From assembly GCA_951812955.1 (NCBI GenBank), contig OX638340.1:2208001-2272000 (forward strand): DNA of 64,000 nt. Reading direction: 5' to 3'. Numbering within the stretch: position 1 is the first letter of the stretch; every line of letters begins with the position of its first letter. Positions 36,335 through 52,754 of this stretch are shown here, piece by piece. A program made the position numbers and the translations under genes. The notes below the pieces were generated by a model. It had not been told where the DNA came from. It saw nothing but the letters and a program-made list of their open reading frames with translations, and searched no databases. The stretch comes from an uncultured Gemmatimonadota bacterium. Lineage in GTDB: Bacteria; JAAXHH01.

Positions 36335-36469
36335 AAACGACCACCCTTACCGCCATATGCCAATGGGATTGATCAGCACCATCTCAGTATTCAACACAAG
36401 TAGTTACGTATGCTGGAGCCAGCTCAACAGGCCAGAAAGTACACGTTCGGTTAATCGAACAGCCATGAA

Positions 36470-37483: not shown

Positions 37484-37817
37484 GGCACGCTACCTATTTG
37501 CCGGTTTGGAAATACAGTACAGGAGTGTTATTTGATTGTAATACGGAGCACACACAATCATGAGGAACCCTACCTTTGCCGTGACAGGCTATAGGGAACG
37601 TCACGGCAGACACAGATAGTAGGTAACGTTGTGTACCCTAAATAAAACCGGATTCCAGCTTGGATGTCAATGATTTAGACTTCAAGGTGATCACAAGACC
37701 TTTACATGACACAGTAATCCGTCCACTTTCGCCATTTCGATTCCTATCACAGCAACTAGGAATACGGCACCGCGGCGACAGTCCTGGCCTTGCATACACG
37801 GGTATATCAATCAGGTA

Positions 37818-38177: not shown

Positions 38178-38274
38178 GATTCCCTGCTCCTTTCGCGTGT
38201 GTGCTAAACCAGTCTCAAGTGGGTTGTGACTCCATCTCGATCGAATTCAGTACAAGTATCTCCGTTTGCTACGA

Positions 38275-39066: not shown

Positions 39067-39194
39067 CGATTCCTCCAGTTTAACTTCGGCAGATTGGTCG
39101 TACTACTTCTCCAACATACGATTACGCAAAAGTCGAATCATGCCTGCTTAAGATGTCTCGCTCTTCAGTCAGTGAATTTCGGTAATGGCCCTGC

Positions 39195-40826
39195 TCAGGC
39201 CTCGTCCATGAAAGGATAGCGCCAGTCCGTCGGCGGGACCATAGTTTCCTTGATCGTCCGGGCGCTCATCCACCGCAGCAGGTTCATCGGACTGCCCGCC
39301 TTGTCGTTCGTTCCGGACGCCCGGGCGCCACCGAAGGGCTGCTGTCCGACGACGGCCCCGGTGGGCTTGTCGTTGACGTAGAAATTACCGGCCGAGTTGC
39401 GGAGCGCATCCGATATGCGGACGATGGCTTCGCGGTCCTGCGCGAAGACGGAGCCGGTCAGGGCGTAGGGTGACGTGCCGTCGCAAAGCGTAAGCGTATC
39501 TTCCAACTGGTCGTCTTCGTAAACGTAGATCGTGAGCACGGGACCGAAGATTTCTTCTTCCATGGTTTTGAAACGCGGGTTCGTCGTCACGATTGTCGTC
39601 GGTTCGACGAACCAGCCTCGCTCGCGGTCGCAAACGCCGCCCGTGATGATCTCGGCGTCATCCGCCGAACGGGCGTATTCGATGTGACCGGCGATGTTTT
39701 CGAAGGAGGCCTCGTCGATCACGGCCGCCATGAAGTTGGTGAAGTCTTCGGGATCTCCCATCTTGATCTGCGAAGCTTCCGCCGTGAACCGATCCCTGAA
39801 TGCCGGCCACAGGGAACGGGGAATGTACATCCGGGAGGCCGCGGAACACTTCTGCCCCTGGTATTCGAAGGCGCCGCGTACCGCCGCCGCGACGAGGGCT
39901 TCCACGTCCGCTGAGGCGTGGACGAAGATGAAGTCCTTCCCTCCCGTCTCGCCCACGATGCGAGGGTAGTGCCTCATGCGCTCAAGGTTGCCCGCCACCG
40001 TGCGGTACATCCGCTGAAAGGTCTCTGTCGAACCGGTGAAATGGATCCCTGCCAGATCCGGGCTGTTCAGCACCGGATCGCCCACTTCGGCCCCGGATCC
40101 CGGGATGAAGTTAATCACGCCGGGGGGCAAACCGGCTTCTTGCAGCAGCCGCATGACGTGCCACGCCGAATAAACGGCCGAGGATGCCGGCTTCCAGAGG
40201 ACCGAGCAGCCGGTCAGCGCCGGCGCCGTGGGCAGGTTGCCGCCGATGGCCGTGAAATTGAACGGGGTTACGGCAAAGACGAACCCCTCGAGGGCCCGGT
40301 ACTCCAGTCGGTTCCACACCCCGACAGAGGATGCCGGCTGGTCGCTCATGAGCTGCGCGAGGTAGCTGACGTTGAATCGCCAGAAATCGATCAGTTCGCA
40401 GGCCGAATCGATCTCGGCCTGGTAGATCGTCTTGGACTGGCCCAGCATGGTGGCGGCGTTGACCGTCTGGCGCCAGGGACCGGCCAGCAAGTCCGCCGCT
40501 TTCGCTATAACCGACGCCCGGTGCTCCCAGGGCATATCCGCCCACGCGGCGCGGGCTTCCAGGGCCGCATCGATCGCCATACGGACCTCGACCGCTCCCG
40601 CTTTGTGATAGACGCCGAGATCGACTGTGTGATCGTGAGGCGCCCGTAGCGGTGCCGTGTTACCCGTCTTCACTTCGCGCCCGCCGATGATCAGTGGGAC
40701 CTCGACAGGCGAGGATTTCAACTCACCGAGCTTCGCCTTGACGGCGGCTCGTTCGGCCGATCCGGGCGCGTAGTCCAGTACCGGCTCGTTGTAGGGCTGA
40801 GGCGGGTTGAAGCGTGCGTTGGCCAT
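39195..40826 (-). CDS. pruA: L-glutamate gamma-semialdehyde (1-pyrroline-5-carboxylate) dehydrogenase
   Basis: Aldehyde dehydrogenase family with the PruA/RocA-type N-terminus MANARFNPPQPYNEPVLDYAPGS. Catalytic Cys in GQKCSAASR and the ETGGKD Glu motif. I prefer the start at 40826 over the ORF-track start at 40958. Confidence 0.85.
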   Translation of the reverse strand: MANARFNPPQPYNEPVLDYAPGSAERAAVKAKLGELKSSPVEVPLIIGGREVKTGNTAPLRAPHDHTVDLGVYHKAGAVEVRMAIDAALEARAAWADMPWEHRASVIAKAADLLAGPWRQTVNAATMLGQSKTIYQAEIDSACELIDFWRFNVSYLAQLMSDQPASSVGVWNRLEYRALEGFVFAVTPFNFTAIGGNLPTAPALTGCSVLWKPASSAVYSAWHVMRLLQEAGLPPGVINFIPGSGAEVGDPVLNSPDLAGIHFTGSTETFQRMYRTVAGNLERMRHYPRIVGETGGKDFIFVHASADVEALVAAAVRGAFEYQGQKCSAASRMYIPRSLWPAFRDRFTAEASQIKMGDPEDFTNFMAAVIDEASFENIAGHIEYARSADDAEIITGGVCDRERGWFVEPTTIVTTNPRFKTMEEEIFGPVLTIYVYEDDQLEDTLTLCDGTSPYALTGSVFAQDREAIVRISDALRNSAGNFYVNDKPTGAVVGQQPFGGARASGTNDKAGSPMNLLRWMSARTIKETMVPPTDWRYPFMDEA

Positions 40827-41095
40827 GATCCATATGTACCCGCCGCGGGGCCGATGTGTCAACTGTTTTGTAGGCCTTCCATGCGGCTGGAGGATCGGCG
40901 AATCAACGGCCGTTGGACGAGCGGACAGACGGCGGACAGACACTGCCGGACGGGCCATTTTAGCCTTGCCAGATCCTGCGGGGAAATGAGATATTGAGGT
41001 TATAGGCCAAAGCCAGACACGCGAATCATAAGAGCAGGATCAACCAGGTTCGCGGCAGCCCAGGAATTGCAGCCGCCCGGACCGGAGGTACGGTC

Positions 41096-42184
41096 ATGAG
41101 CACCGATCAAGCTGACCAGGAACACGGCATCAAGGCGGTCAACCAGGAATTCACGCAATACGACCAGGTGAAGAAGGAACAGACCTACAACCTGGCCGAA
41201 GGCGCGGCGGAGGAGGAATTCGACGAGGAAACGCAGATCAGGACCTGCGACATGAACCTGTTCCATCACGGCGGACCGGAGGGCAAGGCGCAGTTCGCCC
41301 GGGACATCGGTGAGGCCATGGAGGGCATCGGTTTCGTGATCCTCGAGAACCATGAAATCCCGGCCAGCCTGTACGTCGAGGCCGAGCGCAAGGTAGCCGA
41401 GTTCTTCACGTCCACGCCTATAGCGGATAAGATGAGATACGAGGCCCAGCGGCACGGGTCGGTCAACCAGGGCTACTTCCCCATCAAGCAGACCAGCCGG
41501 ATGCATCCCGATCTCGTCGAGGGCTGGGTATTCTGCCGGCGGGCCTTCAACCTGGGCGAGAACCCGGACTACCGCGAAACGGACTACTGGCCCGCGACCG
41601 GATACGAACCCTTTTTCCGCCAGGTCATCCGGCATCACGAAGGTCTGATCCTGCCCCTCATGCAGAGCATCCTGGCCTATCTCGGCTGTGACTCGACAAT
41701 GTACGACGAGAAACTCACGCGAACGAACTTCGGCTTCCGGCTCAACTACTACCCGCCCATCACCCGGGAGGACGACGAGTCCGGCGCCGGACGCATGCTG
41801 GGCCATGAGGACGTGGACCTGTTCACCATCCTGCCCTCCCACGGGGTGGATGGCCTGCAGGTGCTCAACCGCGAAAACATGAAGTGGATCCGCCTCAATC
41901 CGCCCGAGGGCAGCATCATCATCAACACCGGCGACTACATGCAGCGGATCACCAACGACCGCCTTCCTTCCACCACGCACCGTGTCAGCAAGCCTATCGA
42001 CACCAGTCTCTACGAATCGGCCCGCATCAGCATTCCCATGGCCGTATACGTCTGGGAGGAAGAAATGCTCGAGGTGCTGCCCAACACGGGCGAGCCCAAG
42101 TACGAACCCATCTCCGCCGTCCAGTTCCACACCCGGACCACGAGCAAGTACTACGGCGACGATTATGCGGTGGATGATGATTGA
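41096..42184 (+). CDS. 2OG-Fe(II) oxygenase, isopenicillin-N-synthase-like (DIOX_N + 2OG-FeII_Oxy)
   Basis: 362 aa. HxD...H triad context (GHEDVDLF ... TTHRV) and RxS-type 2OG binding. Confidence 0.7.
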   Translation: MSTDQADQEHGIKAVNQEFTQYDQVKKEQTYNLAEGAAEEEFDEETQIRTCDMNLFHHGGPEGKAQFARDIGEAMEGIGFVILENHEIPASLYVEAERKVAEFFTSTPIADKMRYEAQRHGSVNQGYFPIKQTSRMHPDLVEGWVFCRRAFNLGENPDYRETDYWPATGYEPFFRQVIRHHEGLILPLMQSILAYLGCDSTMYDEKLTRTNFGFRLNYYPPITREDDESGAGRMLGHEDVDLFTILPSHGVDGLQVLNRENMKWIRLNPPEGSIIINTGDYMQRITNDRLPSTTHRVSKPIDTSLYESARISIPMAVYVWEEEMLEVLPNTGEPKYEPISAVQFHTRTTSKYYGDDYAVDDD

Positions 42185-42380
42185 CGGGGACTGTTGAATC
42201 GAAATGGCTGATTCGATGTGGACGACGACTGACTAAATCGGGGCAGAAGCGGACCCTCTTCGAGCATTCGGAAGGTCGACGACCGAAGACGAAGCGATAA
42301 TACGTCTGTCGGCCACCCAGCGGCCCGCGAATGACCACCCGTGGTAGACGACGACAGGCGGGATCCAGGAAAGGCTAAGC

Positions 42381-43136
42381 ATGACTCCCCACGAAAGATA
42401 CCTCTTCGACCTGCAGGGTTTTATCGAGGTCCCGGACGCGTTGGACGCCGGGCAGCTCGCAGAACTGAACGGCATACTGGACGAGAAGATCGACGGGGCC
42501 ATGGCACCCGGCGCCACCACCCACCGATTCGGCTTCACCCTGCTCGACTGGGGACCAACCTACCGGGAACTGATCGACAATCCGCGGATAGATCCTTATC
42601 TGGAACAACTGATCGGTCCGAAGTACCGGCTGGACCACGATTATGCCGATATCATCCGAAAAGGCGACGGTCCAATCGGCACGACCCTCCACGGAGGCGC
42701 CATCCCCTTCGACCCCCTCTACTCCTACACCTGCACCAACGAAGAGATCCGTTGCGGCCTGACTGTGGTCGCCTACTACCTGAAGGACGTAAATCCAGGC
42801 GACGGCGGATTCGGCTGCGTGCCCGGCAGCCATAAGAGCAACTTCCGGTTCCCGGACGAGTGGCGCAACCTCAAGACCGACCAGCCCTTCATCCGCGCCG
42901 TAACCGGCAAGGCCGGCACCGCCGTCATATTCACCGAGGCCCTGACCCACGGCACCATGCCCTGGCACGGTGACGAGCGCCGCACCCTCTTCTACAAGTA
43001 CTCGCCCAATTCGATATCCTGGTACGCGGAATACTATGACGCCGACCGGTACGAAGGTCTGACGGAACGGCAGCAGGAGATCCTTGAGGCACCGAACGCG
43101 CGGTATGGAGAACGGTCTAAGCGTGGGGTTGTGTAG
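42381..43136 (+). CDS. phytanoyl-CoA dioxygenase (PhyH) family Fe(II)/2OG oxygenase
   Basis: 251 aa. ERYLFDLQGFIEVPDAL start; GSHK and the distal His (ALTHGTMPWHGD). Confidence 0.7.
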   Translation: MTPHERYLFDLQGFIEVPDALDAGQLAELNGILDEKIDGAMAPGATTHRFGFTLLDWGPTYRELIDNPRIDPYLEQLIGPKYRLDHDYADIIRKGDGPIGTTLHGGAIPFDPLYSYTCTNEEIRCGLTVVAYYLKDVNPGDGGFGCVPGSHKSNFRFPDEWRNLKTDQPFIRAVTGKAGTAVIFTEALTHGTMPWHGDERRTLFYKYSPNSISWYAEYYDADRYEGLTERQQEILEAPNARYGERSKRGVV

Positions 43137-43505
43137 GTGGGCTTTACGGATAGACCAGTTGATATTACGACCACATTTATTTGCTCATTGATTTACTGTA
43201 TCTCGAGGTTACAAATGGACGTTAAGGAAGCCGTAAGTACGGCCATAAAACATATTGCAGATGTATACTCGGAAGAGGGAATCTCGCATATTGGATTAGA
43301 AGAGGTAGAATACGACGAGATTAACTCACAATGGAACGTGACCGTTGGATTTGCACGTAAGTGGGACTTCCCTACTCCGGTTCTTATCCCCGTATTACCT
43401 TCACCAAGACCAAACCAAAGAACCTACAAAATCGTAGTAATTCGTGATAGAGACAAGAAGGTCACCGCAATGAAGATAAGGGATTTAGCTACGTCGAATG
43501 AATAG
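43137..43505 (+). CDS. hypothetical small protein, candidate antitoxin of the downstream PIN toxin
   Basis: Overlaps the PIN gene by 8 nt. First gene of the AT-rich island. Start ambiguous (GTG 43137 or ATG ~43215). No recognisable antitoxin fold by eye. Confidence 0.35.
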   Translation: MGFTDRPVDITTTFICSLIYCISRLQMDVKEAVSTAIKHIADVYSEEGISHIGLEEVEYDEINSQWNVTVGFARKWDFPTPVLIPVLPSPRPNQRTYKIVVIRDRDKKVTAMKIRDLATSNE

Positions 43506-43968
43506 TGTGCTTATAGATACGAATCTACTTGTCCTTTTGGTTGTAGGATCTACCGATAGAGAGTTTATTAGTCGACATAAACGCACAAAATCGTTCATAC
43601 CCAGAGACTATGACGAACTGACACGTCTGTTGTCGGGATCTCGTGAGTTATGGGTTACTTCTCACTGTCTGGCAGAGACATCGAATCTTCTGAAGCAAAC
43701 CGATAAAACAAAAGCACAGATCTTGTTACATACTCTTGCGGCCTACTGCGATATTGCCCGCGAATCGCATATTCCCAAAGAGACGGTATTTGGATACGAG
43801 AACTACCGCAGACTTGGCGTCACCGACACCGGCTTCATATACTCATCCGAAACAGTCTCTCGATCTATAACAGTAGATTTCAACTTGTACATCGAACTGA
43901 GTAACCTTGGCAGAGAAGTGATAAACTTCCACCACATCCGTGCTTCGTATCTCCAGAATGTCGATTGA
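43498..43968 (+). CDS. PIN-domain protein (VapC-like toxin)
   Basis: 156 aa. N-terminal LIDTNLLVLLVVG with the first acidic residue, plus later conserved acidic positions typical of PIN. Confidence 0.55.
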   Translation: MNSVLIDTNLLVLLVVGSTDREFISRHKRTKSFIPRDYDELTRLLSGSRELWVTSHCLAETSNLLKQTDKTKAQILLHTLAAYCDIARESHIPKETVFGYENYRRLGVTDTGFIYSSETVSRSITVDFNLYIELSNLGREVINFHHIRASYLQNVD

Positions 43969-44089
43969 CACGACGATCACACAGTTTTGCACATTCCAGT
44001 GCTTAGTTTTTGGTCAAGACCAACCTGTAGTTAAAACCAACCAATGGCCCTGAAGAAATCCCAAAATTTGGTAAACACTGCCAGGAGAG

Positions 44090-45034
44090 ATGCCACCTAT
44101 GCTTGACGAATTGGTTGGATGTATCGATGAACTTAAAGATCGTATTTCCAAATACCGAAACTCACTAAATGAGAACGAAACTCGTACTCGAATGCAGTTA
44201 ATAGATCCGCTGCTTCGTGTGCTGGGCTGGGACGTCTCCGATCCACGGTACGTTATCCCAGAATTCAAGGTGTCCGATGGTTGGGCTGACTATGCCTTAT
44301 TGCGGGATGATGGTAAGCCTGCTGCTATGGTGGAAGCTAAAAAACTGGACGAACCGTTAAAGCCCGCACACCGTGCTCAGATGTTGAAATACGCAATTGA
44401 GTTGGGTATCCCATACACTGGTTTGACAGATGGAAATCACTGGGAGTTGTACAATGTTTTCCAACCGGTACCTATGGAGGACAAACAGATCTTGGATGTT
44501 ACTTTATTGGATTCCCACTCCCACGAAAGTGCACTAAAGTTACTGCTGCTCTGGAATCCAAATCTAGACGCCGGCAGCGCGGTGAAAGCAAATGAACCTG
44601 TTCTCGTCGACACTCAGAATGGCGGTTCGATTCCTCCAATAATCGTTCCGCCACCATCGAACTGGAAGGCACTTTCAGATTACGAACCACCAGCAGGAAC
44701 ACCCGCACCTAAGGCTATTAGGCTTTGGGATGACTCAGAAAGAGAAGTGCATCATTGGTATGAAATTCTCACCATAGTAGCCGAAAAGCTCTACAACGAA
44801 AATGTCCTTACATTGGAACATATACCGATTCAATGGGCTAAAAAGACCTATAGTATTCACTCTCAACCAGTACATCCGACCGGCAACAAGTTTGAAAATC
44901 ATAAAGAAATCGGTAACTCGGGATTGTTCGTAAACGTAAATTTAAATACCGGTCAAGTACGAAATAACACCCGGAATCTACTGAAGAAATACAACATTGG
45001 TACAGAGAAGGTTTACCTCAAGGTAGCCGATTAG
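44090..45034 (+). CDS. HsdR_N-like PD-(D/E)xK nuclease-domain protein with uncharacterised C-terminal domain
   Basis: 314 aa. N-terminal NENETRTRMQLIDPLLRVLGW ... DYALLRDDGKPAAMVEAKKL is the type-I-restriction R-subunit N-terminal nuclease signature (D...EAK). The C-terminal ~160 aa match nothing I recognise. Confidence 0.55.
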   Translation: MPPMLDELVGCIDELKDRISKYRNSLNENETRTRMQLIDPLLRVLGWDVSDPRYVIPEFKVSDGWADYALLRDDGKPAAMVEAKKLDEPLKPAHRAQMLKYAIELGIPYTGLTDGNHWELYNVFQPVPMEDKQILDVTLLDSHSHESALKLLLLWNPNLDAGSAVKANEPVLVDTQNGGSIPPIIVPPPSNWKALSDYEPPAGTPAPKAIRLWDDSEREVHHWYEILTIVAEKLYNENVLTLEHIPIQWAKKTYSIHSQPVHPTGNKFENHKEIGNSGLFVNVNLNTGQVRNNTRNLLKKYNIGTEKVYLKVAD

Positions 45035-45444
45035 GTAGTTTCGTTGACCTACCATGTTGAGGAGTGATATTTCTTGATCTCCACAGACAAGGTTAAGGGT
45101 AAACCACAGCATACCTCCTCACTATCAGGCACGGTTCCTCAGTACGTTGAAGCGATATCAGCAACTCGCTAGCTAGCAGCTACCTGCCCCGTCGCATGGA
45201 ATACTGGGTACAAACCGTCTTTCACTTTAGTGGCGATTTGTTCACGGCTCCGTTCGTCAAATACAATTGAGCCCACTAATTCCACCTGTTTACCTCGACA
45301 AACAAGAGTACAGATCAATCACTTCGTATGACAAAACTCATTCAACTTCTATTCGAAATTGGAATCGGTGACCACCACTCAACCTCTGAATCGTGTGAGA
45401 CTGATGAAGATTCGCTGGTACATGGAAAGGATAATGGAGTGTAA

Positions 45445-47622
45445 TTGATGAATTCAACGTCTGAAGAAACCACCACCCGTCCCTGTTGGTTTGTGGGCGC
45501 CAGTTATTCTGGTACGGGCGATCAAACTGAGCGATTTCTCACGGAAGGTATCTGGGAGAACGGCTTCGACAACGATCATCCGGCCGTCGCGATGACCAAA
45601 ACCATTCAGCCCGGAGACCCAATCGCGATCAAGTCCGCCTACGTTCGCAAACACGACCTACCTTTTGACAGTCGCAACCAGTTCGTATCCGTAATGGCGA
45701 TCAAGGCCATCGGGACGGTTTTAGAGAACATCGGTGATGGCCATACCGTTAAGGTTAAATGGAATAAGGAGGTAACTCCGCGAGAATGGTATTTCTTTAC
45801 TAACAGAGGTACAGTTTGGAAAGTATCGCCTGGTAGTGACTGGTATTCCGACGCCCTGATCGGATTCGCGTTCGAGAACAAGCCGCAGGATATCGATCGT
45901 TTCTTAAAAGTGCCGTATTGGAGGGAGAGGTATCGAGGAGACACGCTCAATGATCAACGGTTTGCGTGGACGAGGTTCTACGAGGCCTTTGCGGATAAGC
46001 TGCTCACATATAGGAACAAGCGCTTAGACTTAATAAATGGTATACAAGAAATAGCTGCCAGAGAGTATGCCATGTTGGTTCTGAGGGATCAGTTTCGGGA
46101 CGGTACGATCGGTCCACTCAAAGACATATGCCCATTTACTACCATCGGATTGTTCAATAAGGGAATAACGAATAGCAATCGAAGATCAATTGCATCAGAA
46201 CTCGCTGAATTGCTGGGAGTGTCAGAGTCGGTTCCGGATTCATTCGATGGAATACCTGTTCTCAACAATCAGAATTCCTGGTTTTTTTCGTATGAAAAAA
46301 ACCGACGACCGGAAGATATTGAAATCCTTTGGAATGTTTACTCCCGTGCAATTGCCTTCGCTGATTCAGATGATTCCGATGCGCGATCTGCTTTCGTCTC
46401 TGCTTACGACGACGCATCCGAGGTTTCTCACGTAGGTTGGAAACTTACATTTGGGCTGTATTGGATACGGCCTTGGGATTTCCCCGTCCTCGACACGAAT
46501 ACCCGGCGTTACCTGGACAAGAAACTCAATATTGAGATCGGACTAAATGGACCGAAAAGGGGATACTGTAGTGCGAACGACTACCTGACGGTCCATGACA
46601 CACTTGAAAAGAGGTTTCTGGAGGACACATATCCGGTTCGTTCTTTTCCAGAACTAGCACGCGAAGCCTGGTTGTATAAGCCCGGTGACCCGGATCCCCC
46701 GCCAGATAGCGGTCTGGATCCCCCGCCACCACCTGTCCCTTATTCACTCGATGATATCGTGAAAGACGGCTGTTTCATTGCCAGAGATAAACTCGAGTCG
46801 ATACTCAATCGACTCCGTACCAAGAAAAACCTCATTCTACAAGGCCCTCCAGGAACCGGGAAGACTTGGCTCGCCAGGAAGTTGGCCTACGCTTTGATCT
46901 GTGAGCGAGACGAAAGCAAGGTTCGTTCGGTACAGTTCCATCCCAATCTCTCTTACGAAGATTTCGTACGTGGTTGGCGGCCGGCGGGAGATGGTAAACT
47001 TACGCTCGTAGATGGCCCCTTCATCGCCATAAGGGACGAGGCCGAAAAAGATCCTACTACTCGATACGTCTTGGTCATCGAAGAGATCAACCGGGGCAAT
47101 CCCGCACAGATTTTCGGCGAGATGCTGACATTGTTGGAGACCGACAAGCGAACTCCAGACGAAGCCTTGGAATTGGTTTATTCAAAGACTCCGGATGAGC
47201 GATTCTTTGTTCCTAACAATCTGTTTGTCATCGGGACGATGAACATTGCTGATCGTTCACTGGCACTTGTAGACCTGGCATTACGCCGTAGATTTGCATT
47301 TATCGATCTGGAACCTACCCTTGGCAAGACTTGGCGAGACTGGGTCCATTCTAAAAACGGGATAGATAACGAGACTCTCACCGAAATTGAGCATCGTATA
47401 GATGATCTGAACCGGACGATCTCCAATGATTCCGGTCTTGGCTCGCAATTTCGCTTGGGGCACAGTTATGTGACGCCGCCGTTTGAACAGCCGATTAAAG
47501 ATGGGAGAAAGTGGTACAGGGAAGTCGTTGAAACGGAAATTGGACCACTACTCGACGAATACTGGTTCGAAGACCTCGCGAAATCTAGAAACGCAAAAAA
47601 GAAACTTTTGGATGGTTTTTAG
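45445..47622 (+). CDS. mcrB: McrB-family GTPase (AAA+), with ~440-aa uncharacterised N-terminal region
   Basis: 725 aa. Walker A LILQGPPGTGKTW. McrB signature VLVIEEINRGNPAQIFGEMLTLLE. FVIGTMNIADRS. Confidence 0.85.
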   Translation: MMNSTSEETTTRPCWFVGASYSGTGDQTERFLTEGIWENGFDNDHPAVAMTKTIQPGDPIAIKSAYVRKHDLPFDSRNQFVSVMAIKAIGTVLENIGDGHTVKVKWNKEVTPREWYFFTNRGTVWKVSPGSDWYSDALIGFAFENKPQDIDRFLKVPYWRERYRGDTLNDQRFAWTRFYEAFADKLLTYRNKRLDLINGIQEIAAREYAMLVLRDQFRDGTIGPLKDICPFTTIGLFNKGITNSNRRSIASELAELLGVSESVPDSFDGIPVLNNQNSWFFSYEKNRRPEDIEILWNVYSRAIAFADSDDSDARSAFVSAYDDASEVSHVGWKLTFGLYWIRPWDFPVLDTNTRRYLDKKLNIEIGLNGPKRGYCSANDYLTVHDTLEKRFLEDTYPVRSFPELAREAWLYKPGDPDPPPDSGLDPPPPPVPYSLDDIVKDGCFIARDKLESILNRLRTKKNLILQGPPGTGKTWLARKLAYALICERDESKVRSVQFHPNLSYEDFVRGWRPAGDGKLTLVDGPFIAIRDEAEKDPTTRYVLVIEEINRGNPAQIFGEMLTLLETDKRTPDEALELVYSKTPDERFFVPNNLFVIGTMNIADRSLALVDLALRRRFAFIDLEPTLGKTWRDWVHSKNGIDNETLTEIEHRIDDLNRTISNDSGLGSQFRLGHSYVTPPFEQPIKDGRKWYREVVETEIGPLLDEYWFEDLAKSRNAKKKLLDGF

Positions 47623-48743
47623 TGGTGAATGGCCCAGTAGTTAGTACGGCTGACGAGACGATCGAACAGGCCGGGTATATCGGTCGTATCCCTTTACGAA
47701 ATATCTGGCTGCTCATGCTTTACGCCTCTGACCTTTTCAGGCAACTTGATGCGTCTGAATACCGCTCCTTCGAAGATAATCCTGATGACCTGCCCGATCT
47801 GGTTGCCGAGATCCTATCACATGAAGTCGAACGTCGACTAAAGCGAAATCTGAGTTACGGCTACCAATACCGTAACGAAGTGCTCGGACGGGTTCGCGGA
47901 CGTATCGACCTTTTACAAACCGAAGCTCATCAACTACTGCAACGCGGCATGGTCGCCTGTCGATTCGACGAACTGACAATCGACACACCGAGGAACAGGT
48001 ACGTTCGATCCGCCCTCGAGATGATATCCAAATATGTTCGTCGAAAAGACCTGGCTCACCAGTGCAGGTCCCTCGTTGGAAGCCTTAGGCGACAGGGAGT
48101 CGTTGGAGAACGACCTGGGCGTGAGGTGACGTCAGTTGAGCGATACGGTAGACATGACGCTGTTGACCGCAAGATGGTGGATGCGGCTCGTCTTGCCTTC
48201 GAAATGGCCATTCCGACCGAGCAGACCGGTTCCAGGCACCTTCCACTACCGGACCGTGATATAAACTGGATTCGCAGACTCTATGAGAAAGGCGTTGCAG
48301 GATTCTATGATGTGGTACTTTCCAGAAGGGGATGGAATGTGTATCCGGGAACGATTCTCAGATGGCCCACGACAGTCAGAAGTCCGCGAATAGACGGGAT
48401 ACTACCCTCCATGCGGACCGATATTGTGTTGGATCATGTTGACGAAGGCCGACGGATCGTTATAGACACGAAATTCAACTCGGTTTTGTCGAGAGGTTGG
48501 TATCGAAATGAAGGGATACGAAGCGGATACATGTACCAGATCTATGCTTACCTTAGGTCGCAGGAAGAGAGTGGTGATCCGCTTGATTGTAATGCAGAGG
48601 GAATGTTTCTCCATCCGTCGGTTGGTGAGATGTTCAACGAATGGGTAGATATTCAGGGTCATCGGATCCACTTCAATACCGTTGATCTCGCAACCGATAC
48701 ACAGACCATCAGATCGCAGTTGTTGGATGCGGTGAAACCTTAA
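47622..48743 (+). CDS. mcrC: McrC-family PD-(D/E)xK nuclease subunit
   Basis: 373 aa. GTG start overlaps the mcrB stop by 1 nt. C-terminal nuclease region DIVLDHVDEGRRIVIDTKFN. Confidence 0.75.
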   Translation: MVNGPVVSTADETIEQAGYIGRIPLRNIWLLMLYASDLFRQLDASEYRSFEDNPDDLPDLVAEILSHEVERRLKRNLSYGYQYRNEVLGRVRGRIDLLQTEAHQLLQRGMVACRFDELTIDTPRNRYVRSALEMISKYVRRKDLAHQCRSLVGSLRRQGVVGERPGREVTSVERYGRHDAVDRKMVDAARLAFEMAIPTEQTGSRHLPLPDRDINWIRRLYEKGVAGFYDVVLSRRGWNVYPGTILRWPTTVRSPRIDGILPSMRTDIVLDHVDEGRRIVIDTKFNSVLSRGWYRNEGIRSGYMYQIYAYLRSQEESGDPLDCNAEGMFLHPSVGEMFNEWVDIQGHRIHFNTVDLATDTQTIRSQLLDAVKP

Positions 48744-48834
48744 ACTGACTTTGCTCTCGACATAGTCGTTCCACCAGCCCATTTCCCGCATCCGTTTGGT
48801 GTGTTCGGCAGCTTCGGTAATCTCAAGATTTGAC

Positions 48835-49761
48835 TCACCCCGCCTTCCTGAAGACCTCGAAACGACGGTCCAGCCGGTCCTGGTCCGGATGGTCACGGGT
48901 GCGTGAAGGCAGGTGCAGTCCCGATCCGTCCAGTTGCTTGAGGGCCTGGAGCATGGGACCGTCATCCTTGTCCAGCAGGCGGTCGGATACGTGCAGCCGG
49001 TAGTCGGGATCAATGCCGATCAGGTGGGCGTCAAAGGCCGCATGATGAATCTTGGACAGGGCCAAGCCGTTGGGTACGACGGGTTGTCCCAATGCCTCGT
49101 CGCCATCGGCAATGATGTGGGCGGCATCCAGTAACTGCGTTTCCGGTAGGCCGGTAATGGCACAGCGGCCGCGATAGGCGTGAAGGACAGCCTCGCGGAA
49201 CGTGGCTTGGTGGAGTCGTTCCTTGACCATGCGCAGGGCATACCGCCGCTCTACCGCGTTAATCGGAGCTTCCATCTCGGCCTGGTTGGGGTTCCCAAAG
49301 GCAAGCGTGGACTTGAGCGCGAATCCATCCCAATTGGAGATGAAGGTGGGAATGATCGCCTGATACCGGCTGGGAGACACACCGAGAAAGTAGATCACGG
49401 GAATCTGATTCTCCCAGGCAACCTTTAACCACTGGTTGTCTGCTGCTGCCGGGTCCTGTCCCATGAAGGCGTAGTCCACGGAATCGTTGCCCTCGAAAAT
49501 CTGGCTGTGGACCTGCTTTTGGTCGTCGTACCAGACTCGGCCGCCCGGTCTGGGGTACACGGTCCTGATCGAGAGAAGGTACCGCATCCGGCGCGGCTTG
49601 AATATGCCCCGCTGCGGATTGACAAGGGGGATCCTTTCGCCTTCGAATACGAACCCCGGCGCCAGTTCGTCCCTCGTAAGGTGGCCATGGGTTTCACTCA
49701 GCCGCCGCACGTGATCGAACGCGGCCATCCGCATCCTCGGATCTCGGTCGTCGACGTTCAT
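48835..49761 (-). CDS. HNH endonuclease with N-terminal putative DNA-reader domain
   Basis: 308 aa. C-terminal HNH_2-type motif LLDAAHIIADGDEALGQPVVPNGLALSKIHHAAFD. The N-terminal ~200 aa are uncharacterised. Confidence 0.6.
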   Translation of the reverse strand: MNVDDRDPRMRMAAFDHVRRLSETHGHLTRDELAPGFVFEGERIPLVNPQRGIFKPRRMRYLLSIRTVYPRPGGRVWYDDQKQVHSQIFEGNDSVDYAFMGQDPAAADNQWLKVAWENQIPVIYFLGVSPSRYQAIIPTFISNWDGFALKSTLAFGNPNQAEMEAPINAVERRYALRMVKERLHQATFREAVLHAYRGRCAITGLPETQLLDAAHIIADGDEALGQPVVPNGLALSKIHHAAFDAHLIGIDPDYRLHVSDRLLDKDDGPMLQALKQLDGSGLHLPSRTRDHPDQDRLDRRFEVFRKAG

Positions 49762-49770
49762 CTCAGTCCT

Positions 49771-50787
49771 TTACCCCCGGTAAATCCTCTCATTGTGCCA
49801 GGATAGTACTTCGGTGGACGGCTGGTCCACCGCATTCCTGGGAACGACAATCTGTTTCCCGTGCAAAGAGTAGTAATCGCGCCCGTTCTCGAATTCCTCC
49901 CGGACCTGTCCGCTGACCTCGAAGTGCAATTCAGGGGTCACCGTTACGTATCCGGAATCGAACAGCCCGTGGATGTCGCGCCTTAGCAGCAGTCCGTTCC
50001 TGGCTTCGTGGATGCCCCCTTCGCTGTAGGGACGGATGTGCGCGGCATCAAGGGCCGGCAGCGTCCGTTCGCGGGTAACTGCGCAACGGCGGTCGTAAAG
50101 GTCGGTTACCAGGGCCCTGAAAGCACCTTGACCGAGACGCGGTTTGACCAGTTGCGGTTTGCCGTAAAGGGTTTGCCCGGCCAGGAGGCCTGAGGGTTCG
50201 GCCACGATGCCGGCAGGATTTGCAGATACACTGGTTGGCTGTCGGAATTCCAAACGGCCGTTGACTGCGTCCCACAATGCCCGTCCGTCTGAGTCACCGG
50301 TACTAAATGTCTTTAGTGACACGATGTTCGGCGACCATGTCGACGGCACATCGACAAACTCGGATGCCTCGAAGAAGAAGGGTTGGGTAAGGATCCGGCA
50401 GCCAATCTTGTAATCGCTCGGCTCACGTGGGTCAACATTACGGTAACGTGAGATACGATTTCGCATTTCCTGCAATGTCTCGGCACCGTTGGCTTCCCCG
50501 AATGCTTCCCATGCAAGGGAACAAGGCATCACATTGGCATAGGCAAAAACGCCGCCGCCAACGATTACGTTGTACGGCGCGTGTAGCTTGAAGAGGAACA
50601 GTTCACCGGGCTGAAGTGCCTTGAAGTTCGTGCCAGAAGGCGCCCAGAAGTTGACCTCCTCCAGGTGCGGCTTCTGCCGGAGAGTCTTGAACCAGTCCCC
50701 GTCGGTCACGGCAACGACCAGCTTGATGTCCATAGCGCGAATTCCGGTAAACTTTGGTGCTATTGGGATACAGGCAGATCCGATCAA
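49771..50787 (-). CDS. HNH endonuclease with N-terminal PUA-like (EVE/ASCH-type) domain
   Basis: 338 aa (start possibly the internal Met at 50733). N-terminus WFKTLRQKPHLEEVNFWAPSGTNFKALQPGELFLFKLHAPYNVIVGGGVF resembles the EVE/PUA-like pattern. C-terminal HNH ALDAAHIRPYSEGGIHEARNGLLLRRDIHGLFD. Paralogous to the neighbouring gene. Confidence 0.6.
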   Translation of the reverse strand: MIGSACIPIAPKFTGIRAMDIKLVVAVTDGDWFKTLRQKPHLEEVNFWAPSGTNFKALQPGELFLFKLHAPYNVIVGGGVFAYANVMPCSLAWEAFGEANGAETLQEMRNRISRYRNVDPREPSDYKIGCRILTQPFFFEASEFVDVPSTWSPNIVSLKTFSTGDSDGRALWDAVNGRLEFRQPTSVSANPAGIVAEPSGLLAGQTLYGKPQLVKPRLGQGAFRALVTDLYDRRCAVTRERTLPALDAAHIRPYSEGGIHEARNGLLLRRDIHGLFDSGYVTVTPELHFEVSGQVREEFENGRDYYSLHGKQIVVPRNAVDQPSTEVLSWHNERIYRG

Positions 50788-51076
50788 CGGACAACCGCAA
50801 CCGTGCGTCTCGCTGATCGAGCCTTATCATCTAAAATAAAAGACGGCAACCATGGCAGGTCAAGTGCCGCCTGTGCGACCCGGTTTTTGACGTTTGGAAC
50901 ACAGAACGAGTGCTTCCAGATTGCCTTGACCAAATGTACCTGTTAGTTTACTGAACGTTGGTACACTTGATCTCATAAGTTATCAGGAGATTACGAGCGA
51001 GTAGTGAAAGGAACGATTCATATCTTATGTTGTGTAATTTAAATCATATATCGGAAATAGTACATAGGGGAGTTGT

Positions 51077-51274
51077 GTGGTGAATAGTAACTCAAAAGAT
51101 AATAACGAACGGCGATCGCCGATAAAAACCGCCAAACATGACAACTCGAGTGACGAAAACAATCCCCCAGCCAACCTGGCGGAAGCGATACGCGCCCGTT
51201 TTGCACCGTTGGGTGGGATAGAACTGGATCTTCCGCCACGCGAACCCATGCGCGAACCGCCCGAATTCAAATAA
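51077..51274 (+). CDS. small hypothetical protein (65 aa) at island boundary
   Basis: GTG start; AT-rich context; no motif. Could be non-coding. Confidence 0.2.
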   Translation: MVNSNSKDNNERRSPIKTAKHDNSSDENNPPANLAEAIRARFAPLGGIELDLPPREPMREPPEFK

Positions 51275-51359
51275 TGAGAACGCATTAGCGCTGACTGGAA
51301 ACTGTCCCATATGAACCCGGCAATTCCGCACTGGTAATCCAACCAACAAAGGACACCCC

Positions 51360-52754
51360 ATGCCCCCGATCGACATCGGCTCACGCCGCGAGCTCTTTGT
51401 AGACTCATTTCTGATCGACACCCTCACGGACGCCCACCAACATCTTCACGAACCCGTTCTAAAGGAGACGGTATTCCGCGTAGAGGAACCTCTGGAGAAC
51501 GCCTGTACGGGTTGCTACAACCTGGTACAGACAGACGGCAAAGTCCTGGTGTATTACCGCGGCTATCACCCCACGGGCAAACACGAGGATCTGCCCGAGG
51601 GTTGGGCGGAAACGCAGACGACAAACCTGCTGGTCAGCGATGACGGCATCCACTTCGAACGGCCGAACCTGGGCCTGGTGGAAGCGGAAGGTTCGAAGGA
51701 CAACAACATCCTCGTCCGGGGCCGCGAGGCACATAACTTCTGCGTCTTCCTGGACGGCAATCCGGAAGTGGCGCCCGATCAGCGTTTCAAGGCCGTCGGT
51801 GGAGAAGGCAGGGACAGTCTCTTCGGTTTCACTTCATCCGACGGATTGACCTGGAAACCGGTGCAGGACGGTCCCCTCGCGATCACGGGCGCCTTCGACT
51901 CGGTGAACGTGCCCCTTTGGGACGACTACGCGGGTTGCTACCGCCTCTTCAGCCGGTACTTCGAACAGACGGGGGAAGACGGCGTCGGGGTCCGGGCAAT
52001 TCAGAGCTGCACCTCGGAGGATTTCATCCACTGGACCACGCCCGAACATCACGTGTACGGCGAAGGCGTCCCGTTCGAGCACTTCTACACCAACGCCACC
52101 ACGCCATGCCCTGGCGCGGAACACATCCTGCTGTCCTTTCCCATGCGGTTCGTGCCGGAACGGACGAAGGACATCAAGGGCATGGATTACCCCGGGGGCG
52201 GCGTGTCCGACGCTATATTCATGTCGAGTCGGGACGGCGTCCACTGGGACCGGAGTTTCATGGACGCCTGGCTGCGCCCGGGCCTGGAAAAGCGCAACTG
52301 GACGCACCGCAACCAGACGCCGGCCGCGGGAATCGTTCCGACAGCCCCGGACGAATGGTCGATGTACGTCGCCGAGCATTACGGATGGGACACCAACGGC
52401 GTGAGGCGGGTGACCGTCCGTCCCCACGGTTTCGCCTCCGTCCGGGCAGGCTACTACGGTGGCGAACTGTTTACGAAACCCCTGACCTTCACCGGATCGA
52501 CGCTGTATATCAACTACTCGGCGTCCGCCGTGGGCGCCGTGTCCGTGGAGATTCAGGATACGGAAGGTCGAGCCTTGGAGGGATTTGCGGCAAACGACAT
52601 GGATCCCCTGTTCGGCGACGACCTGGACGCCCCGATTACGTGGAAGGGCTCCGACGGTCTGAATGGCCTGAACCGGCTGAACGGTGTGCCGGTCCGCCTG
52701 CGGTTCATCCTGAAGGACGCCGATCTCTTCTCGATCCGTTTCGGAGATTCCTGA
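51360..52754 (+). CDS. hypothetical glycoside-hydrolase-like protein (beta-propeller-type)
   Basis: 464 aa. No catalytic motif assignable by eye. Confidence 0.35.
   Translation: MPPIDIGSRRELFVDSFLIDTLTDAHQHLHEPVLKETVFRVEEPLENACTGCYNLVQTDGKVLVYYRGYHPTGKHEDLPEGWAETQTTNLLVSDDGIHFERPNLGLVEAEGSKDNNILVRGREAHNFCVFLDGNPEVAPDQRFKAVGGEGRDSLFGFTSSDGLTWKPVQDGPLAITGAFDSVNVPLWDDYAGCYRLFSRYFEQTGEDGVGVRAIQSCTSEDFIHWTTPEHHVYGEGVPFEHFYTNATTPCPGAEHILLSFPMRFVPERTKDIKGMDYPGGGVSDAIFMSSRDGVHWDRSFMDAWLRPGLEKRNWTHRNQTPAAGIVPTAPDEWSMYVAEHYGWDTNGVRRVTVRPHGFASVRAGYYGGELFTKPLTFTGSTLYINYSASAVGAVSVEIQDTEGRALEGFAANDMDPLFGDDLDAPITWKGSDGLNGLNRLNGVPVRLRFILKDADLFSIRFGDS

What the first reader, a model, noticed from the sequence alone, without database searches (positions are those of the whole stretch)
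43137..51350. 8-kb AT-rich defense island without integrase: PIN toxin pair, HsdR_N-like nuclease, McrBC, two HNH endonucleases
A run of seven genes with visibly lower G+C is inserted between a PhyH-family oxygenase gene and a glycosidase-like gene. Every gene that I can classify is a nuclease or restriction component. No tRNA, integrase or transposase is visible in the window, so the mobilisation route is unclear. AT-rich intergenic stretches at both ends (42185-42380 and 50788-51359) mark the boundaries.
Basis: partly seen in the sequence, partly recalled or inferred. Interest (0 to 1): 0.6.

Follow-up and report, generated by a model that had tools for sequence, protein, structure and literature searches.

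The report
Integrase-free defence hotspot with stacked nucleases
Between two conserved housekeeping genes of an uncultured sponge/coral-associated bacterium lies a swap site that holds different anti-phage genes in nearly every related genome, here mostly nucleases of families that cut modified DNA plus a toxin-like gene pair; it is a clear example of a known kind of defence hotspot, not a new kind of system.

Summary
Only 43137-48831 (orfA, PIN-like orfB, a 314-aa HsdR_N-like PD-(D/E)XK protein, McrB, McrC) is clearly foreign in composition: GC 0.474 against 0.615±0.034, GC3 0.43-0.52 against 0.78-0.84. The two HNH genes are near native (GC 0.587, GC3 0.67-0.74) and form the whole interval in the minimal relative L013.

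In 21 related species-level MAGs and 5 further distinct arrangements on 6 metagenome contigs, the PhyH-to-g464 interval runs from 2.6 kb to over 10 kb. It carries type I, II and IIG R-M genes, McrBC, Mrr-like, PLD-like and PIN/FitA genes, AddAB-like genes and occasional IS256/IS3 copies. Homology to relatives with other cargo stops at or within about 31 bp of the PhyH stop codon and about 25 bp before the g464 start. I found no tRNA, flanking repeats or integrase.

The best reading is a core defence hotspot whose modules are exchanged by flank- and module-guided homologous recombination and deletion; that mechanism is inferred. The window's cargo has no methyltransferase. McrB has an EVE-like N-terminal domain. 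A decayed FitA-like antitoxin lies at 51077-51274. Verdict: new member of a known kind, moderate interest.

The parts
42381..43136 (+). Left anchor: PhyH-family 2OG oxygenase gene. It is core and has native GC (GC3 0.78).
   Evidence: Pfam PhyH, E 5e-9. Relatives at 85-96% identity were found in 21 MAGs, with conserved upstream synteny in the 19 loci that have upstream sequence. Homology to L013 ends at 43105; homology to L002 and L039 ends at 43140-43148.
43215..43505 (+). orfA, 96 aa. Conserved partner gene (putative antitoxin) of the PIN-like gene; overlaps orfB by 8 nt.
   Evidence: No significant Pfam hit. Homologues lie directly upstream of orfB homologues in L021, L032, L033, L034 and L035 and in 12 of 13 viral contigs. 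GC3 0.43.
43498..43968 (+). orfB, 156 aa. PIN-fold (VapC-like) putative toxin/RNase.
   Evidence: AF2 pLDDT 93.1. Foldseek against PDB gives VapC26, VapC20 and PAE0151, E 2.6e-4 to 6.5e-4, probability 1.0. D7, E60, D110 and D127 are invariant. No Pfam PIN hit even at E<=10.
44090..45034 (+). 314-aa stand-alone HsdR_N-like PD-(D/E)XK protein with a conserved C-terminal domain of unknown function. The true start is probably the ATG at 44099, which gives 311 aa like the closest homologues.
   Evidence: PF04313, 25.3 bits against a cut-off of 25.1. Profile hit to the HsdR N-terminus 3h1t, E 8e-4. E58, D67, E82 and K84 are invariant. More than 1298 homologues. Sits next to McrBC at this site in L035-L039 but stands alone in distant genomes.
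45448..47622 (+). McrB, 724 aa. N-terminal DUF8425 (an EVE-like barrel at about residues 13-126, then a helical domain at about 170-410), followed by the McrB AAA+ GTPase and lid.
47622..48743 (+). McrC, 373 aa. Nuclease partner; its start overlaps the McrB stop by 1 nt.
   Evidence: NCBIfam NF007277 equivalog, 395.5 bits against a cut-off of 338. Pfam McrBC, E 2e-22.
48835..49761 (-). HNH308. HNH_2 endonuclease with an unassigned N-terminal domain of about 175 aa. An older resident of the site.
   Evidence: HNH_2, E 5e-11. PADLOC HNH PDLC04132, E 1.6e-28. GC3 0.74. Orthologues at the same position in L002, L006, L009, L013, L014, L020, L035 and L037.
49771..50736 (-). HNH338. HNH_2 endonuclease with a different N-terminal domain of about 200 aa. 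It probably starts at the ATG at 50736 (321 aa); the ORF extends to 50787.
   Evidence: HNH_2, E 4e-12. Profile hit to VcaM4I 6yex, E 8e-10, over the linker and HNH region only. Shares only the HNH region with HNH308 (hhalign probability 97%). GC3 0.67.
51077..51274 (+). Decayed FitA-like ribbon-helix-helix antitoxin remnant (65 aa) with no toxin partner.
   Evidence: 49% identical (E 2e-23) to the FitA-like antitoxin of L007 that is paired there with a PIN gene, with a 12-aa deletion in the RHH region. Remnants are conserved upstream of g464 in many relatives.
51360..52754 (+). Right anchor: conserved 464-aa gene of unknown family, native GC.
   Evidence: No Pfam, NCBIfam or PDB sequence match. 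80-86% identical in relatives. Homology across all loci starts only about 25 bp upstream of its ATG.

Best explanation
The region is one occupant state of a chromosomal core defence hotspot. The site is fixed by two conserved housekeeping-type genes, the PhyH-family oxygenase and a 464-aa gene, in a clade of sponge/coral-associated MAGs labelled mostly Latescibacterota. Different genomes hold different sets of defence modules at this site.

In this genome the stack has no methyltransferase. It consists of the following modules.
- A McrBC GTP-dependent restriction system. Its McrB carries an EVE-like reader domain, so it is predicted to load on DNA with modified bases and cut through McrC.
- Two HNH_2 endonucleases with two different, still unassigned N-terminal domains. 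They are probably sensor-plus-nuclease enzymes.
- A stand-alone HsdR_N-type PD-(D/E)XK protein.
- A PIN-fold gene with a conserved small partner. This is probably a toxin-antitoxin or abortive-infection module that also stabilises the locus.
- The remnant of a FitA-like antitoxin.

The 5.7-kb low-GC block (orfA to McrC) is the younger layer. The HNH pair is older and largely ameliorated. Modules enter, leave and change alleles without an integrase. The most likely route is homologous recombination of incoming DNA guided by the conserved flanks or by shared modules, plus deletions and occasional IS activity.

Shown here: the composition, the gene identities, the variability of the site and the positions of the junctions. 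Inferred: the recombination route, the dependence on DNA modification, and the toxin function.
For: Composition:
- The GC step lies exactly at the PhyH stop codon. The island is 0.474 G+C against 0.615±0.034, and the GC3 layers are 0.43-0.52, then 0.67-0.74, then 0.78-0.84.

Variability of the site:
- The genome scan found 21 relatives with PhyH at 85-96% identity.
- The PhyH-to-g464 interval ranges from 2581 bp to more than 10 kb, and the gene sets differ.
- Cargo elsewhere includes HsdM/HsdS/PDC-S06, an Eco57I-like methylase with a PstI-like REase, a type IIG enzyme, a PLD/DrmC-like gene, PIN+FitA, a C5 methylase, SLATT, an Mrr-like gene, AddAB-like genes, and IS256 and IS3 copies.
- L013 has only the HNH pair. 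The window aligns to it as 39190-43105 plus 48832-50956, so the low-GC block is exactly the extra DNA.
- L038 and L039 have the 314-aa gene and McrBC but no HNH pair.

Incongruent similarity between cargo and flanks:
- In L020 the flank is 91.8% identical but the McrB 5' part only 68%.
- In L042 McrBC is 87.9% identical but the g464 flank only 80.0%, and its neighbour is an Mrr-like gene instead of the 314-aa gene.

No sign of site-specific integration:
- No tRNA.
- No repeats at the boundaries above chance level.
- No tyrosine or serine recombinase in the cargo proteins I scanned.

Gene functions.

Concept: integrase-free hotspots flanked by core genes, with low GC and a proposed flank-mediated recombination route, have been described in P. 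aeruginosa (PMC10250203).
Against: - Recombination was not demonstrated. It is inferred from mosaicism and from the absence of integration scars.
- Module order is broadly collinear across loci (AddAB, then R-M or the 314-aa gene, then McrBC, then the HNH pair, then the FitA remnant, then g464). Part of the variation could therefore be differential loss from a larger ancestral array.
- All the relatives are MAGs or metagenome contigs, so some arrangements could be affected by assembly errors. L042 has only 3x coverage and a frameshifted g464.
- The N-terminal domains of the two HNH enzymes and the C-terminal domain of the 314-aa protein are unassigned, so 'modification-dependent' is unproven for three of the four nucleases.
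- The DUF8425 model has only moderate confidence (pLDDT 69).
- orfA has no recognisable antitoxin or DNA-binding domain.
- Only 64 kb of this genome was visible. An integrase or a cognate methyltransferase further away cannot be excluded.
Confidence: 0.72

Rival explanations
1. Vertical inheritance with differential loss. A large ancestral array (AddAB, R-M genes, the 314-aa gene, McrBC, the HNH pair, a TA module) sat at this site in the clade ancestor, and present diversity comes mainly from lineage-specific deletions and fast evolution of defence genes, with little or no horizontal input.
For: - The order of shared modules is the same wherever they co-occur (L037, L042, L014, L020, L035).
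- Decay products are common: the FitA remnant, an HsdM_N fragment in L035, fragmented AddAB in L011 and L014, and a truncated HNH338 in L020.
- McrC (86-88%) and the HNH proteins (79-93%) diverge about as much as the flanking proteins do.
Against: - The five low-GC genes have GC3 0.43-0.52 against 0.78-0.84 in core genes. Such values should have ameliorated if the genes were as old as the clade.
- Cargo and flank similarity disagree in both directions (L020 and L042).
- Many cargo sets are unique to one or two species.
- The DUF8425-McrB family is about 63% identical to proteins of Pseudomonadota, Chlorobium and Geobacter. That is about the same as its 50-70% identity, by 50-residue block, to the McrB N-terminal region of L020, the relative with the most similar flanking genes.
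- Members of the family also occur on plasmids.
Confidence: 0.18
2. Remnant of a classical integrative element (prophage, ICE/IME or integrative island) whose integrase and att sites have been lost, or lie outside what was examined.
For: - The composition step at the left edge is sharp.
- orfA/orfB homologues occur on 13 IMG/VR viral contigs.
- IS256 and IS3 transposases occur at the site in two relatives.
Against: - No tRNA/tmRNA, no direct or inverted repeats at the edges, and no integrase in the island ORFs and flanking ORFs scanned in the window.
- None of the 26 other versions of the site showed a tyrosine or serine recombinase among the cargo proteins scanned (gene tables).
- No phage structural or conjugation genes.
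- No hit for the McrB N-terminal region in 50,697 phage records, and none for the 314-aa family in viral contigs.
- Modules are separable and occur independently of each other.
Confidence: 0.06
3. The low G+C reflects functional or selective constraints on these genes, or assembly chimerism in a MAG, and not foreign origin.
For: - Defence genes are often AT-rich wherever they are found.
- The source is a metagenome-assembled chromosome.
Against: - The same gene order (PhyH, orfA, orfB, the 314-aa gene, McrBC, the HNH pair) was assembled independently in L035 and L036 from other samples.
- The junctions fall at gene boundaries and read through intact genes.
- The tetranucleotide signature deviates as well as GC.
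- The HNH defence genes in the same island are not AT-rich.
Confidence: 0.04

Closest known systems
Core defence hotspots cDHS1/cDHS2 of Pseudomonas aeruginosa (Johnson et al. 2023, PMC10250203)
   Same: - A fixed chromosomal site bounded by conserved core genes.
- Highly variable size and content, rich in defence systems.
- Lower GC than the core genome.
- Not obviously part of any mobile element.
- Flank-guided homologous recombination proposed as the exchange route.
   Different: - This site lies in a clade of uncultured sponge/coral-associated MAGs and is seen across species-level genomes, not across strains of one species.
- It is much smaller (2.6 kb to a little over 10 kb, against a median of 26 kb).
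- No non-coding RNA gene was found next to it, whereas cDHS2 is flanked by ssrA and the paper's wording implies an RNA flank for cDHS1 too. The window has no tRNA or Rfam hit.
- In some relatives the site also holds AddAB-like genes at native GC.
E. coli K-12 McrBC and the EVE-McrB family (Bell, Wolf and Koonin 2020, PMC7641849; Hosford et al., PDB 6n0s and 6p0g)
   Same: - McrB AAA+ GTPase with Walker A and the MNxxDRS signature.
- McrC immediately downstream, above the NCBIfam equivalog cut-off.
- An N-terminal PUA-superfamily (EVE/YTH-like) reader, as in many McrB homologues.
   Different: - E. coli McrB instead uses a DUF3578-type domain of about 160 aa.
- The specificity is unknown.
- The N-terminal region evolves much faster than the motor: 50-70% identity by 50-residue block against 88-94%.
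Modification-dependent sensor-HNH endonucleases (VcaM4I/TspA15I EVE-HNH, PMC7897488; ScoMcrA-type PT-DNA enzymes)
   Same: - A C-terminal HNH_2 nuclease preceded by an N-terminal domain of 175-200 aa.
- The HNH338 family profile hits VcaM4I (6yex) at E 8e-10.
- Weak similarity to NF045808 over the HNH region.
   Different: - The similarity covers only the linker and HNH part.
- Neither N-terminal domain matches any Pfam model.
- Both proteins score far below the NF045808 cut-off (54.6 and 57.5 against 180).
- Two such genes sit in tandem with unrelated N-terminal domains.
VapBC/FitAB type II toxin-antitoxin modules
   Same: - PIN fold with four conserved acidic residues.
- A small upstream gene overlapping the PIN gene by 8 nt.
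- Scattered, selfish-looking insertion sites: between carA and carB, inside a type I R-M operon, among other TA genes, and on viral contigs.
   Different: - Not recognised by the Pfam PIN models.
- The partner (orfA) has no RHH, AbrB or HTH signature.
- Toxicity has not been tested.

Membership tests
McrBC type IV restriction system | McrB-type AAA+ GTPase domain (Walker A GxxGxGKT and the McrB signature MNxxDRS) | tested here: met
   Residues 425-721 match E. coli McrB 161-456 at E 5e-74. NF008457 aligns over 432-722. GPPGTGKT and MNIADRS can be read in the translation.
McrBC type IV restriction system | McrC nuclease partner encoded immediately downstream | tested here: met
   NF007277 equivalog, 395.5 bits against a cut-off of 338, aligned over the full length. 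The start overlaps the McrB stop.
McrBC type IV restriction system | N-terminal DNA-binding domain that reads modified bases | tested here: inconclusive
   [not shown]
McrBC type IV restriction system | GTP-dependent cleavage of modified DNA | not testable with these tools
   Needs biochemistry or phage assays.
PIN-domain (VapC-like) toxin-antitoxin module | PIN fold with conserved acidic active-site residues | tested here: met
   pLDDT 93. VapC26, VapC20 and PAE0151 are the top PDB matches, probability 1.0. D7, E60, D110 and D127 are invariant in 39 homologues.
PIN-domain (VapC-like) toxin-antitoxin module | Match to curated PIN sequence models (Pfam clan) | tested here: not met
   No Pfam hit at E<=10. 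No precomputed Pfam domain in any of the 120 listed homologues. The profile against PDB gives only VapC26 at E 0.09.
PIN-domain (VapC-like) toxin-antitoxin module | Conserved small upstream partner gene (antitoxin position) | tested here: met
   orfA homologues lie directly upstream in L021, L032-L035 and 12 of 13 viral contigs.
PIN-domain (VapC-like) toxin-antitoxin module | Partner has a DNA-binding antitoxin domain, and the toxin is neutralised by it | tested here: inconclusive
   No domain was found in orfA; the best hit is NGO1945_C at E 0.026. Neutralisation is not testable here.
Type I restriction R subunit (HsdR) | N-terminal PD-(D/E)XK nuclease domain (HSDR_N) | tested here: met
   PF04313, 25.3 bits against a cut-off of 25.1, which is marginal. 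The profile hits the HsdR 3h1t N-terminus at E 8e-4. E58, D67, E82 and K84 are invariant.
Type I restriction R subunit (HsdR) | SF2 helicase/translocase motor and partner HsdM/HsdS genes | tested here: not met
   The protein is 314 aa with no ResIII or SWI2_SNF2 domain. No hsdM or hsdS in the window island. The family is a stand-alone protein of about 315 aa with more than 1298 members. It is therefore not an HsdR.
Sensor-HNH modification-dependent endonucleases / PT-DNA restriction endonuclease (NF045808) | HNH_2 catalytic domain | tested here: met
   PF13391, E 5e-11 and 4e-12. PADLOC HNH models.
Sensor-HNH modification-dependent endonucleases / PT-DNA restriction endonuclease (NF045808) | Recognised modification-sensor domain (EVE/SRA/SBD/DUF3427) in the N-terminal part, and a full-length family score | tested here: not met
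   No Pfam hit for either N-terminal domain at E<=10. NF045808 scores 54.6 and 57.5 bits against a cut-off of 180, over the HNH part only. The VcaM4I match excludes its EVE domain. A structure prediction was not possible for these proteins.
Core defence hotspot (sensu PMC10250203) | The same conserved flanking genes across relatives, with variable content between them | tested here: met
   All 21 GTDB loci have PhyH, and the 19 with upstream sequence keep upstream synteny. g464 was found on the other side in 13 of them and lies beyond the fetched 10 kb, or beyond the contig end, in the rest. It was also found in L037-L039 and L042. Interval lengths are 2581 to more than 10000 bp, with different gene sets.
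Core defence hotspot (sensu PMC10250203) | Content enriched in defence systems and lower in GC than the core genome | tested here: met
   R-M types I, II, IIG and IV, PDC-S06, DrmC-like, LmuA-like and TA genes. Interval GC is 0.44-0.58 in most loci, against 0.60-0.64 upstream.
Integrative genomic island / mobile element | Integrase or recombinase, a tRNA/tmRNA or other att site, and flanking direct repeats | tested here: not met
   No tRNA or tmRNA. Only chance-level repeats. No integrase in the scanned window ORFs or in the cargo of relatives. Only IS256 and IS3 transposases in L005 and L018.

The most novel reading that the evidence does not exclude
orfA/orfB is a previously undescribed two-gene toxin system. 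The toxin is a PIN-fold nuclease family that current PIN sequence models do not detect, and its 96-aa partner has no known antitoxin fold. The pair moves between phages and chromosomal defence loci: it is found inside a type I R-M operon, at this hotspot, and on 13 viral contigs. On this reading it acts as the addiction or abortive-infection element that keeps integrase-free defence cargo in place at this clade-wide swap site.
Probability: 0.3. Interest if true: 0.5.

Novelty: new member of a known kind. Interest (0 to 1): 0.36.

Why it matters
- It shows that the integrase-free 'core defence hotspot' organisation described in Pseudomonas also exists in an uncultured, host-associated lineage. 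It is visible there across species-level genomes, with junctions resolved to within about 31 bp of the left flanking gene's stop codon and about 25 bp of the right flanking gene's start.
- It provides a natural series of about 27 occupant states for studying how defence modules are swapped without mobile-element machinery.
- It flags several uncharacterised parts that always travel with defence genes: the DUF8425 reader region of a very widespread McrB family, two unassigned sensor-like domains fused to HNH_2, a conserved 315-aa HsdR_N-like protein family, and a Pfam-invisible PIN pair.
- For sponge-symbiont biology, a methylase-free stack of nuclease families linked to modified-DNA restriction fits a defence aimed at phages with modified genomes. 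That link is shown by fold only for McrB, and it remains a hypothesis.

Tried and rejected
- **Repeats at the edges.** Only 12-31-nt chance-level matches were found, none bracketing 43137/48831 or 43137/51350. I rejected att sites and terminal inverted repeats.
- **Promoter and terminator scan.** Counts were at or below the shuffled expectation, so it was uninformative.
- **tRNA and Rfam.** Nothing found.
- **Exact-sequence look-ups of PhyH and of P0001.** Not on record, so the source genome's own context beyond the window could not be fetched.
- **PDB sequence searches.** The single-sequence searches for HNH308, the 314-aa protein and orfB gave nothing useful. Family profiles did better for the 314-aa protein and only weakly for orfB (VapC26, E 0.09). 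The HNH308 profile remained negative.
- **Pfam at E<=10.** I scanned the isolated N-terminal domains of both HNH proteins, the 314-aa C-terminal domain, orfA and both halves of DUF8425. No significant hits.
- **hhalign of the HNH338 family against the McrB N-terminal family.** No relationship, so a shared reader domain is not supported.
- **A functional trio of the 314-aa gene with McrBC.** I rejected it as a general rule. The adjacency holds only at this site in this clade. It is absent in L002, L020 and L042, and distant homologues stand alone.
- **The 314-aa protein as a truncated HsdR.** Rejected: there is no similarity to a neighbouring HsdR in L033, and the family is conserved over its full length.
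- **Phage or plasmid carriage.** No phage hits for the McrB N-terminal region and a few plasmid hits. The 314-aa family is absent from viral contigs.
- **The 'glycosidase-like' label for g464.** No support.

Full report
**1. Observation**

The window averages about 0.62 G+C. A fine profile shows a step from 0.62 to 0.41-0.48 immediately after the PhyH stop codon (43134-43136). G+C returns to 0.58-0.62 at about 48.8 kb, and there is a further AT-rich patch at 50.8-51.25 kb.

In numbers, 43137-48831 is 0.474 G+C. The 102 background 500-bp windows give 0.615 ± 0.034, with a minimum of 0.502. All 11 island windows are <=0.53. Tetranucleotide usage also deviates: the correlation with the background is 0.54-0.68, against a typical 0.8-0.9.

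The two HNH genes do not share this signal. Their G+C is 0.587 (z -1.3). Their GC3 is 0.74 and 0.67, against 0.43-0.52 for the five low-GC genes and 0.78-0.84 for the flanking genes.

It is not a boundary. No tRNA or Rfam family is present in the 64 kb.

**2. Gene content**

- **PhyH (42381-43136)** and an upstream 2OG-Fe(II) oxygenase are confirmed.
- **orfB (43498-43968)** has no Pfam, NCBIfam or PADLOC hit.
  - Its family of 179 detected homologues has invariant D7, E60, D110 and D127.
  - An AlphaFold model with pLDDT 93 matches VapC26, VapC20 and PAE0151 best (Foldseek E 2.6e-4 to 6.5e-4, probability 1.0). It is a PIN fold.
- **orfA (43215-43505)** overlaps orfB by 8 nt.
  - Homologues lie directly upstream of orfB homologues in five other bacterial loci and in 12 of 13 viral contigs.
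  - The bacterial sites include one between carA and carB and one inside a type I R-M operon.
  - It has no recognisable domain.
- **The 314-aa protein (44090-45034)**
  - It is marginal for Pfam HSDR_N (25.3 bits against a cut-off of 25.1). Its family profile hits the N-terminus of HsdR 3h1t at E 8e-4, and E58, D67, E82 and K84 are invariant.
  - It lacks any helicase domain. It belongs to a large family of stand-alone proteins of about 315 aa with a conserved C-terminal domain of unknown function.
- **McrB (45448-47622)**
  - It has the E. coli-type GTPase (E 5e-74) with GPPGTGKT and MNIADRS.
  - Its 420-aa N-terminal region is catalogued in newer Pfam releases as DUF8425, followed by McrB_lid.
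  - A moderate-confidence model (pLDDT 69) shows a beta-barrel at residues 13-126 and then a helical domain.
  - EVE-McrB is reported as the commonest EVE architecture in defence systems (PMC7641849).
- **McrC (47622-48743)** passes the NCBIfam equivalog cut-off.
- **HNH308 and HNH338** both have HNH_2 domains.
  - They share only that region with each other (hhalign probability 97%).
  - The HNH338 profile hits VcaM4I over the linker and HNH part only. 6YEX is VcaM4I according to PMC7897488.
  - Their N-terminal domains match nothing.
- **A 65-aa ORF at 51077-51274** is 49% identical (E 2e-23) to a FitA-like RHH antitoxin that is paired with a PIN gene in relative L007. It carries a 12-aa deletion and has no toxin partner, so it is a decayed remnant.
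- **The 464-aa right-flank gene** has no family assignment.

**3. Comparison with relatives**

A scan of one genome per species found 21 loci whose PhyH is 85-96% identical. All are MAGs from sponge or coral metagenomes, labelled mostly Latescibacterota (some Gemmatimonadetes or Poribacteria), with chromosomes of about 3.7-3.9 Mb. The genes upstream of PhyH are syntenic in the 19 loci that have upstream sequence.

The distance from PhyH to g464 ranges from 2581 bp to more than 10 kb, and the content differs. Pfam and PADLOC scans of the cargo found the following:

| Cargo | Loci |
|---|---|
| HsdM + HsdS, with a PDC-S06 ATPase in L017 and L018 | L004, L008, L015, L017, L018 |
| Eco57I-like methylase + BsuBI/PstI-like REase | L012, L019, L020 |
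| Type IIG enzyme | L001 |
| PLD/DrmC-like gene and LmuA-like gene | L001, L010 |
| PIN with or without a FitA-like antitoxin | L006-L009 |
| C5 methylase | L007 |
| SLATT, TGT-like and Ogg-like genes | L017 |
| DUF1828 / PDC-M24B | L002, L005, L015 |
| AddAB-like pair at native GC | L003, L007, L011, L012, L014, L016, L019 (AddA-like gene only in L021) |
| IS256 and IS3 transposases | L005, L018 |

Six further metagenome contigs add five more distinct arrangements.
- **L035/L036:** the window's arrangement plus an HsdM_N fragment.
- **L037:** AddAB, the 314-aa gene, McrBC and the HNH pair.
- **L038 and L039:** the 314-aa gene and McrBC only.
- **L042:** HsdR, YgjP, AddAB, an Mrr-like gene and McrBC.

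DNA alignments define the modules.
- Against L013, which holds PhyH, HNH308, HNH338 and g464 only, the window aligns as 39190-43105 and 48832-50956. The low-GC block is therefore exactly the extra DNA.
- Against L039, the window aligns through the 314-aa gene and McrBC and resumes at 51151. The HNH pair is therefore a separate module.

**4. Junctions and mobility**

On the left, sequences of loci with different cargo diverge within about 0-15 bp after the PhyH stop codon. Two variants of the last ~10 codons exist, and L013-type homology ends 31 bp inside the gene. On the right, universal homology begins only about 25 bp upstream of the g464 ATG.

No direct or inverted repeats bracket any module. 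No tyrosine or serine recombinase was found among the cargo proteins I scanned.

Similarity of cargo and flanks is incongruent.
- **L020**, the closest relative by its flanking genes: flank DNA is 91.8% identical, but the McrB 5' region is only 68%. By 50-residue block, the McrB N-terminal region is 50-70% identical and the GTPase 88-94%.
- **L042:** McrBC is 87.9% identical, but the g464 flank is only 80.0%.

The DUF8425-McrB family has more than 3800 detected members. They are about 63% identical to the window protein in Pseudomonadota, Chlorobium, Geobacter and Chloroflexota. A few occur on plasmids and none in phage records.

**5. Interpretation**

The site behaves like the 'core defence hotspots' described in P. 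aeruginosa. Those have conserved flanking genes, variable low-GC defence cargo and no obvious mobile element, and their exchange has been proposed to go through flank homology (PMC10250203).

In this genome the occupant is a methylase-free stack of nucleases (McrBC, two HNH_2 enzymes and an HsdR_N-type nuclease), a PIN pair and a dead antitoxin.

The route of exchange is inferred from mosaicism, incongruence, the absence of scars and the decay products. I take it to be homologous recombination guided by flanks and shared modules, plus deletion and occasional IS activity. It is not shown directly.

Because shared modules keep the same order across loci, differential loss from a larger ancestral array contributes and is kept as the main rival. 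A degenerate integrative element and an assembly or selection artefact are unlikely.

**6. Novelty**

All the components belong to known kinds, and so does the organisation. What is new is the lineage, the resolution of the junctions and several uncharacterised domains. I rate it a new member of a known kind and of moderate interest.

Noticed in passing
window 28508-30215 (- strand), within the low-GC patch at 26000-31000: This is a second, independent low-GC insertion (0.41-0.51). It carries a GmrSD_N/DUF262 protein (359 aa; PADLOC NsnA E 7e-63, PD-T4-2_A E 1.5e-47) and a HEPN protein (214 aa; HEPN_MAE_28990 / RiboL-PSP). It sits between an aminotransferase gene (27237-28376) and an ABC transporter gene (30707-33082). 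Those two genes are adjacent in relative L039.
   Followed up: partly
window 36470-37483 (- strand); wider region 34119-38200: The ORF encodes a lipoprotein-like signal sequence followed by about 250 residues of (Gly-Asp)n dipeptide repeat ending in poly-Asp. The DNA has 12- and 60-nt tandem repeats and a GC skew of -0.29. The surrounding ~4 kb, including a 532-aa ORF with no Pfam hit, is absent between the same flanking genes in L039 and has deviant tetranucleotide usage.
   Followed up: partly
window 51077-51274 (+): Decayed FitA-like RHH antitoxin with no toxin partner. Similar remnants are conserved just upstream of g464 in many relatives (L002, L005, L013, L016, L020, L021, L038, L039, L042).
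   Followed up: yes
[not shown]
   Followed up: partly
L003, L007, L011, L012, L014, L016, L019, L021, L037, L042 (directly downstream of PhyH, except L021 and L042): An AddAB-like helicase-nuclease pair at native GC occupies the same site in about ten relatives. It is fragmented in L011 and L014, reduced to an AddA-like gene in L021, and absent from the whole 64-kb window. I could not determine whether this genome has AddAB elsewhere or has lost it.
   Followed up: partly
L017 17926-20663: The cargo in one relative includes a SLATT two-transmembrane effector, a TGT-like protein and an Ogg-HhH glycosylase-like protein downstream of a type I R-M + PDC-S06 cluster. This may be a base-modification-linked defence module.
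   Followed up: no
L018 13672-17388; L005 12734-15191: IS256-family (Mutator) transposase copies sit in the hotspot of two relatives. One interrupts hsdS in L018. An IS3-type rve transposase is present in L005.
   Followed up: partly
L043-L055 (IMG/VR viral contigs): orfB relatives (31-40% identity) occur on 13 viral contigs, and 12 of them have an orfA-family gene directly upstream. The pair therefore also travels on (pro)phage DNA.
   Followed up: partly
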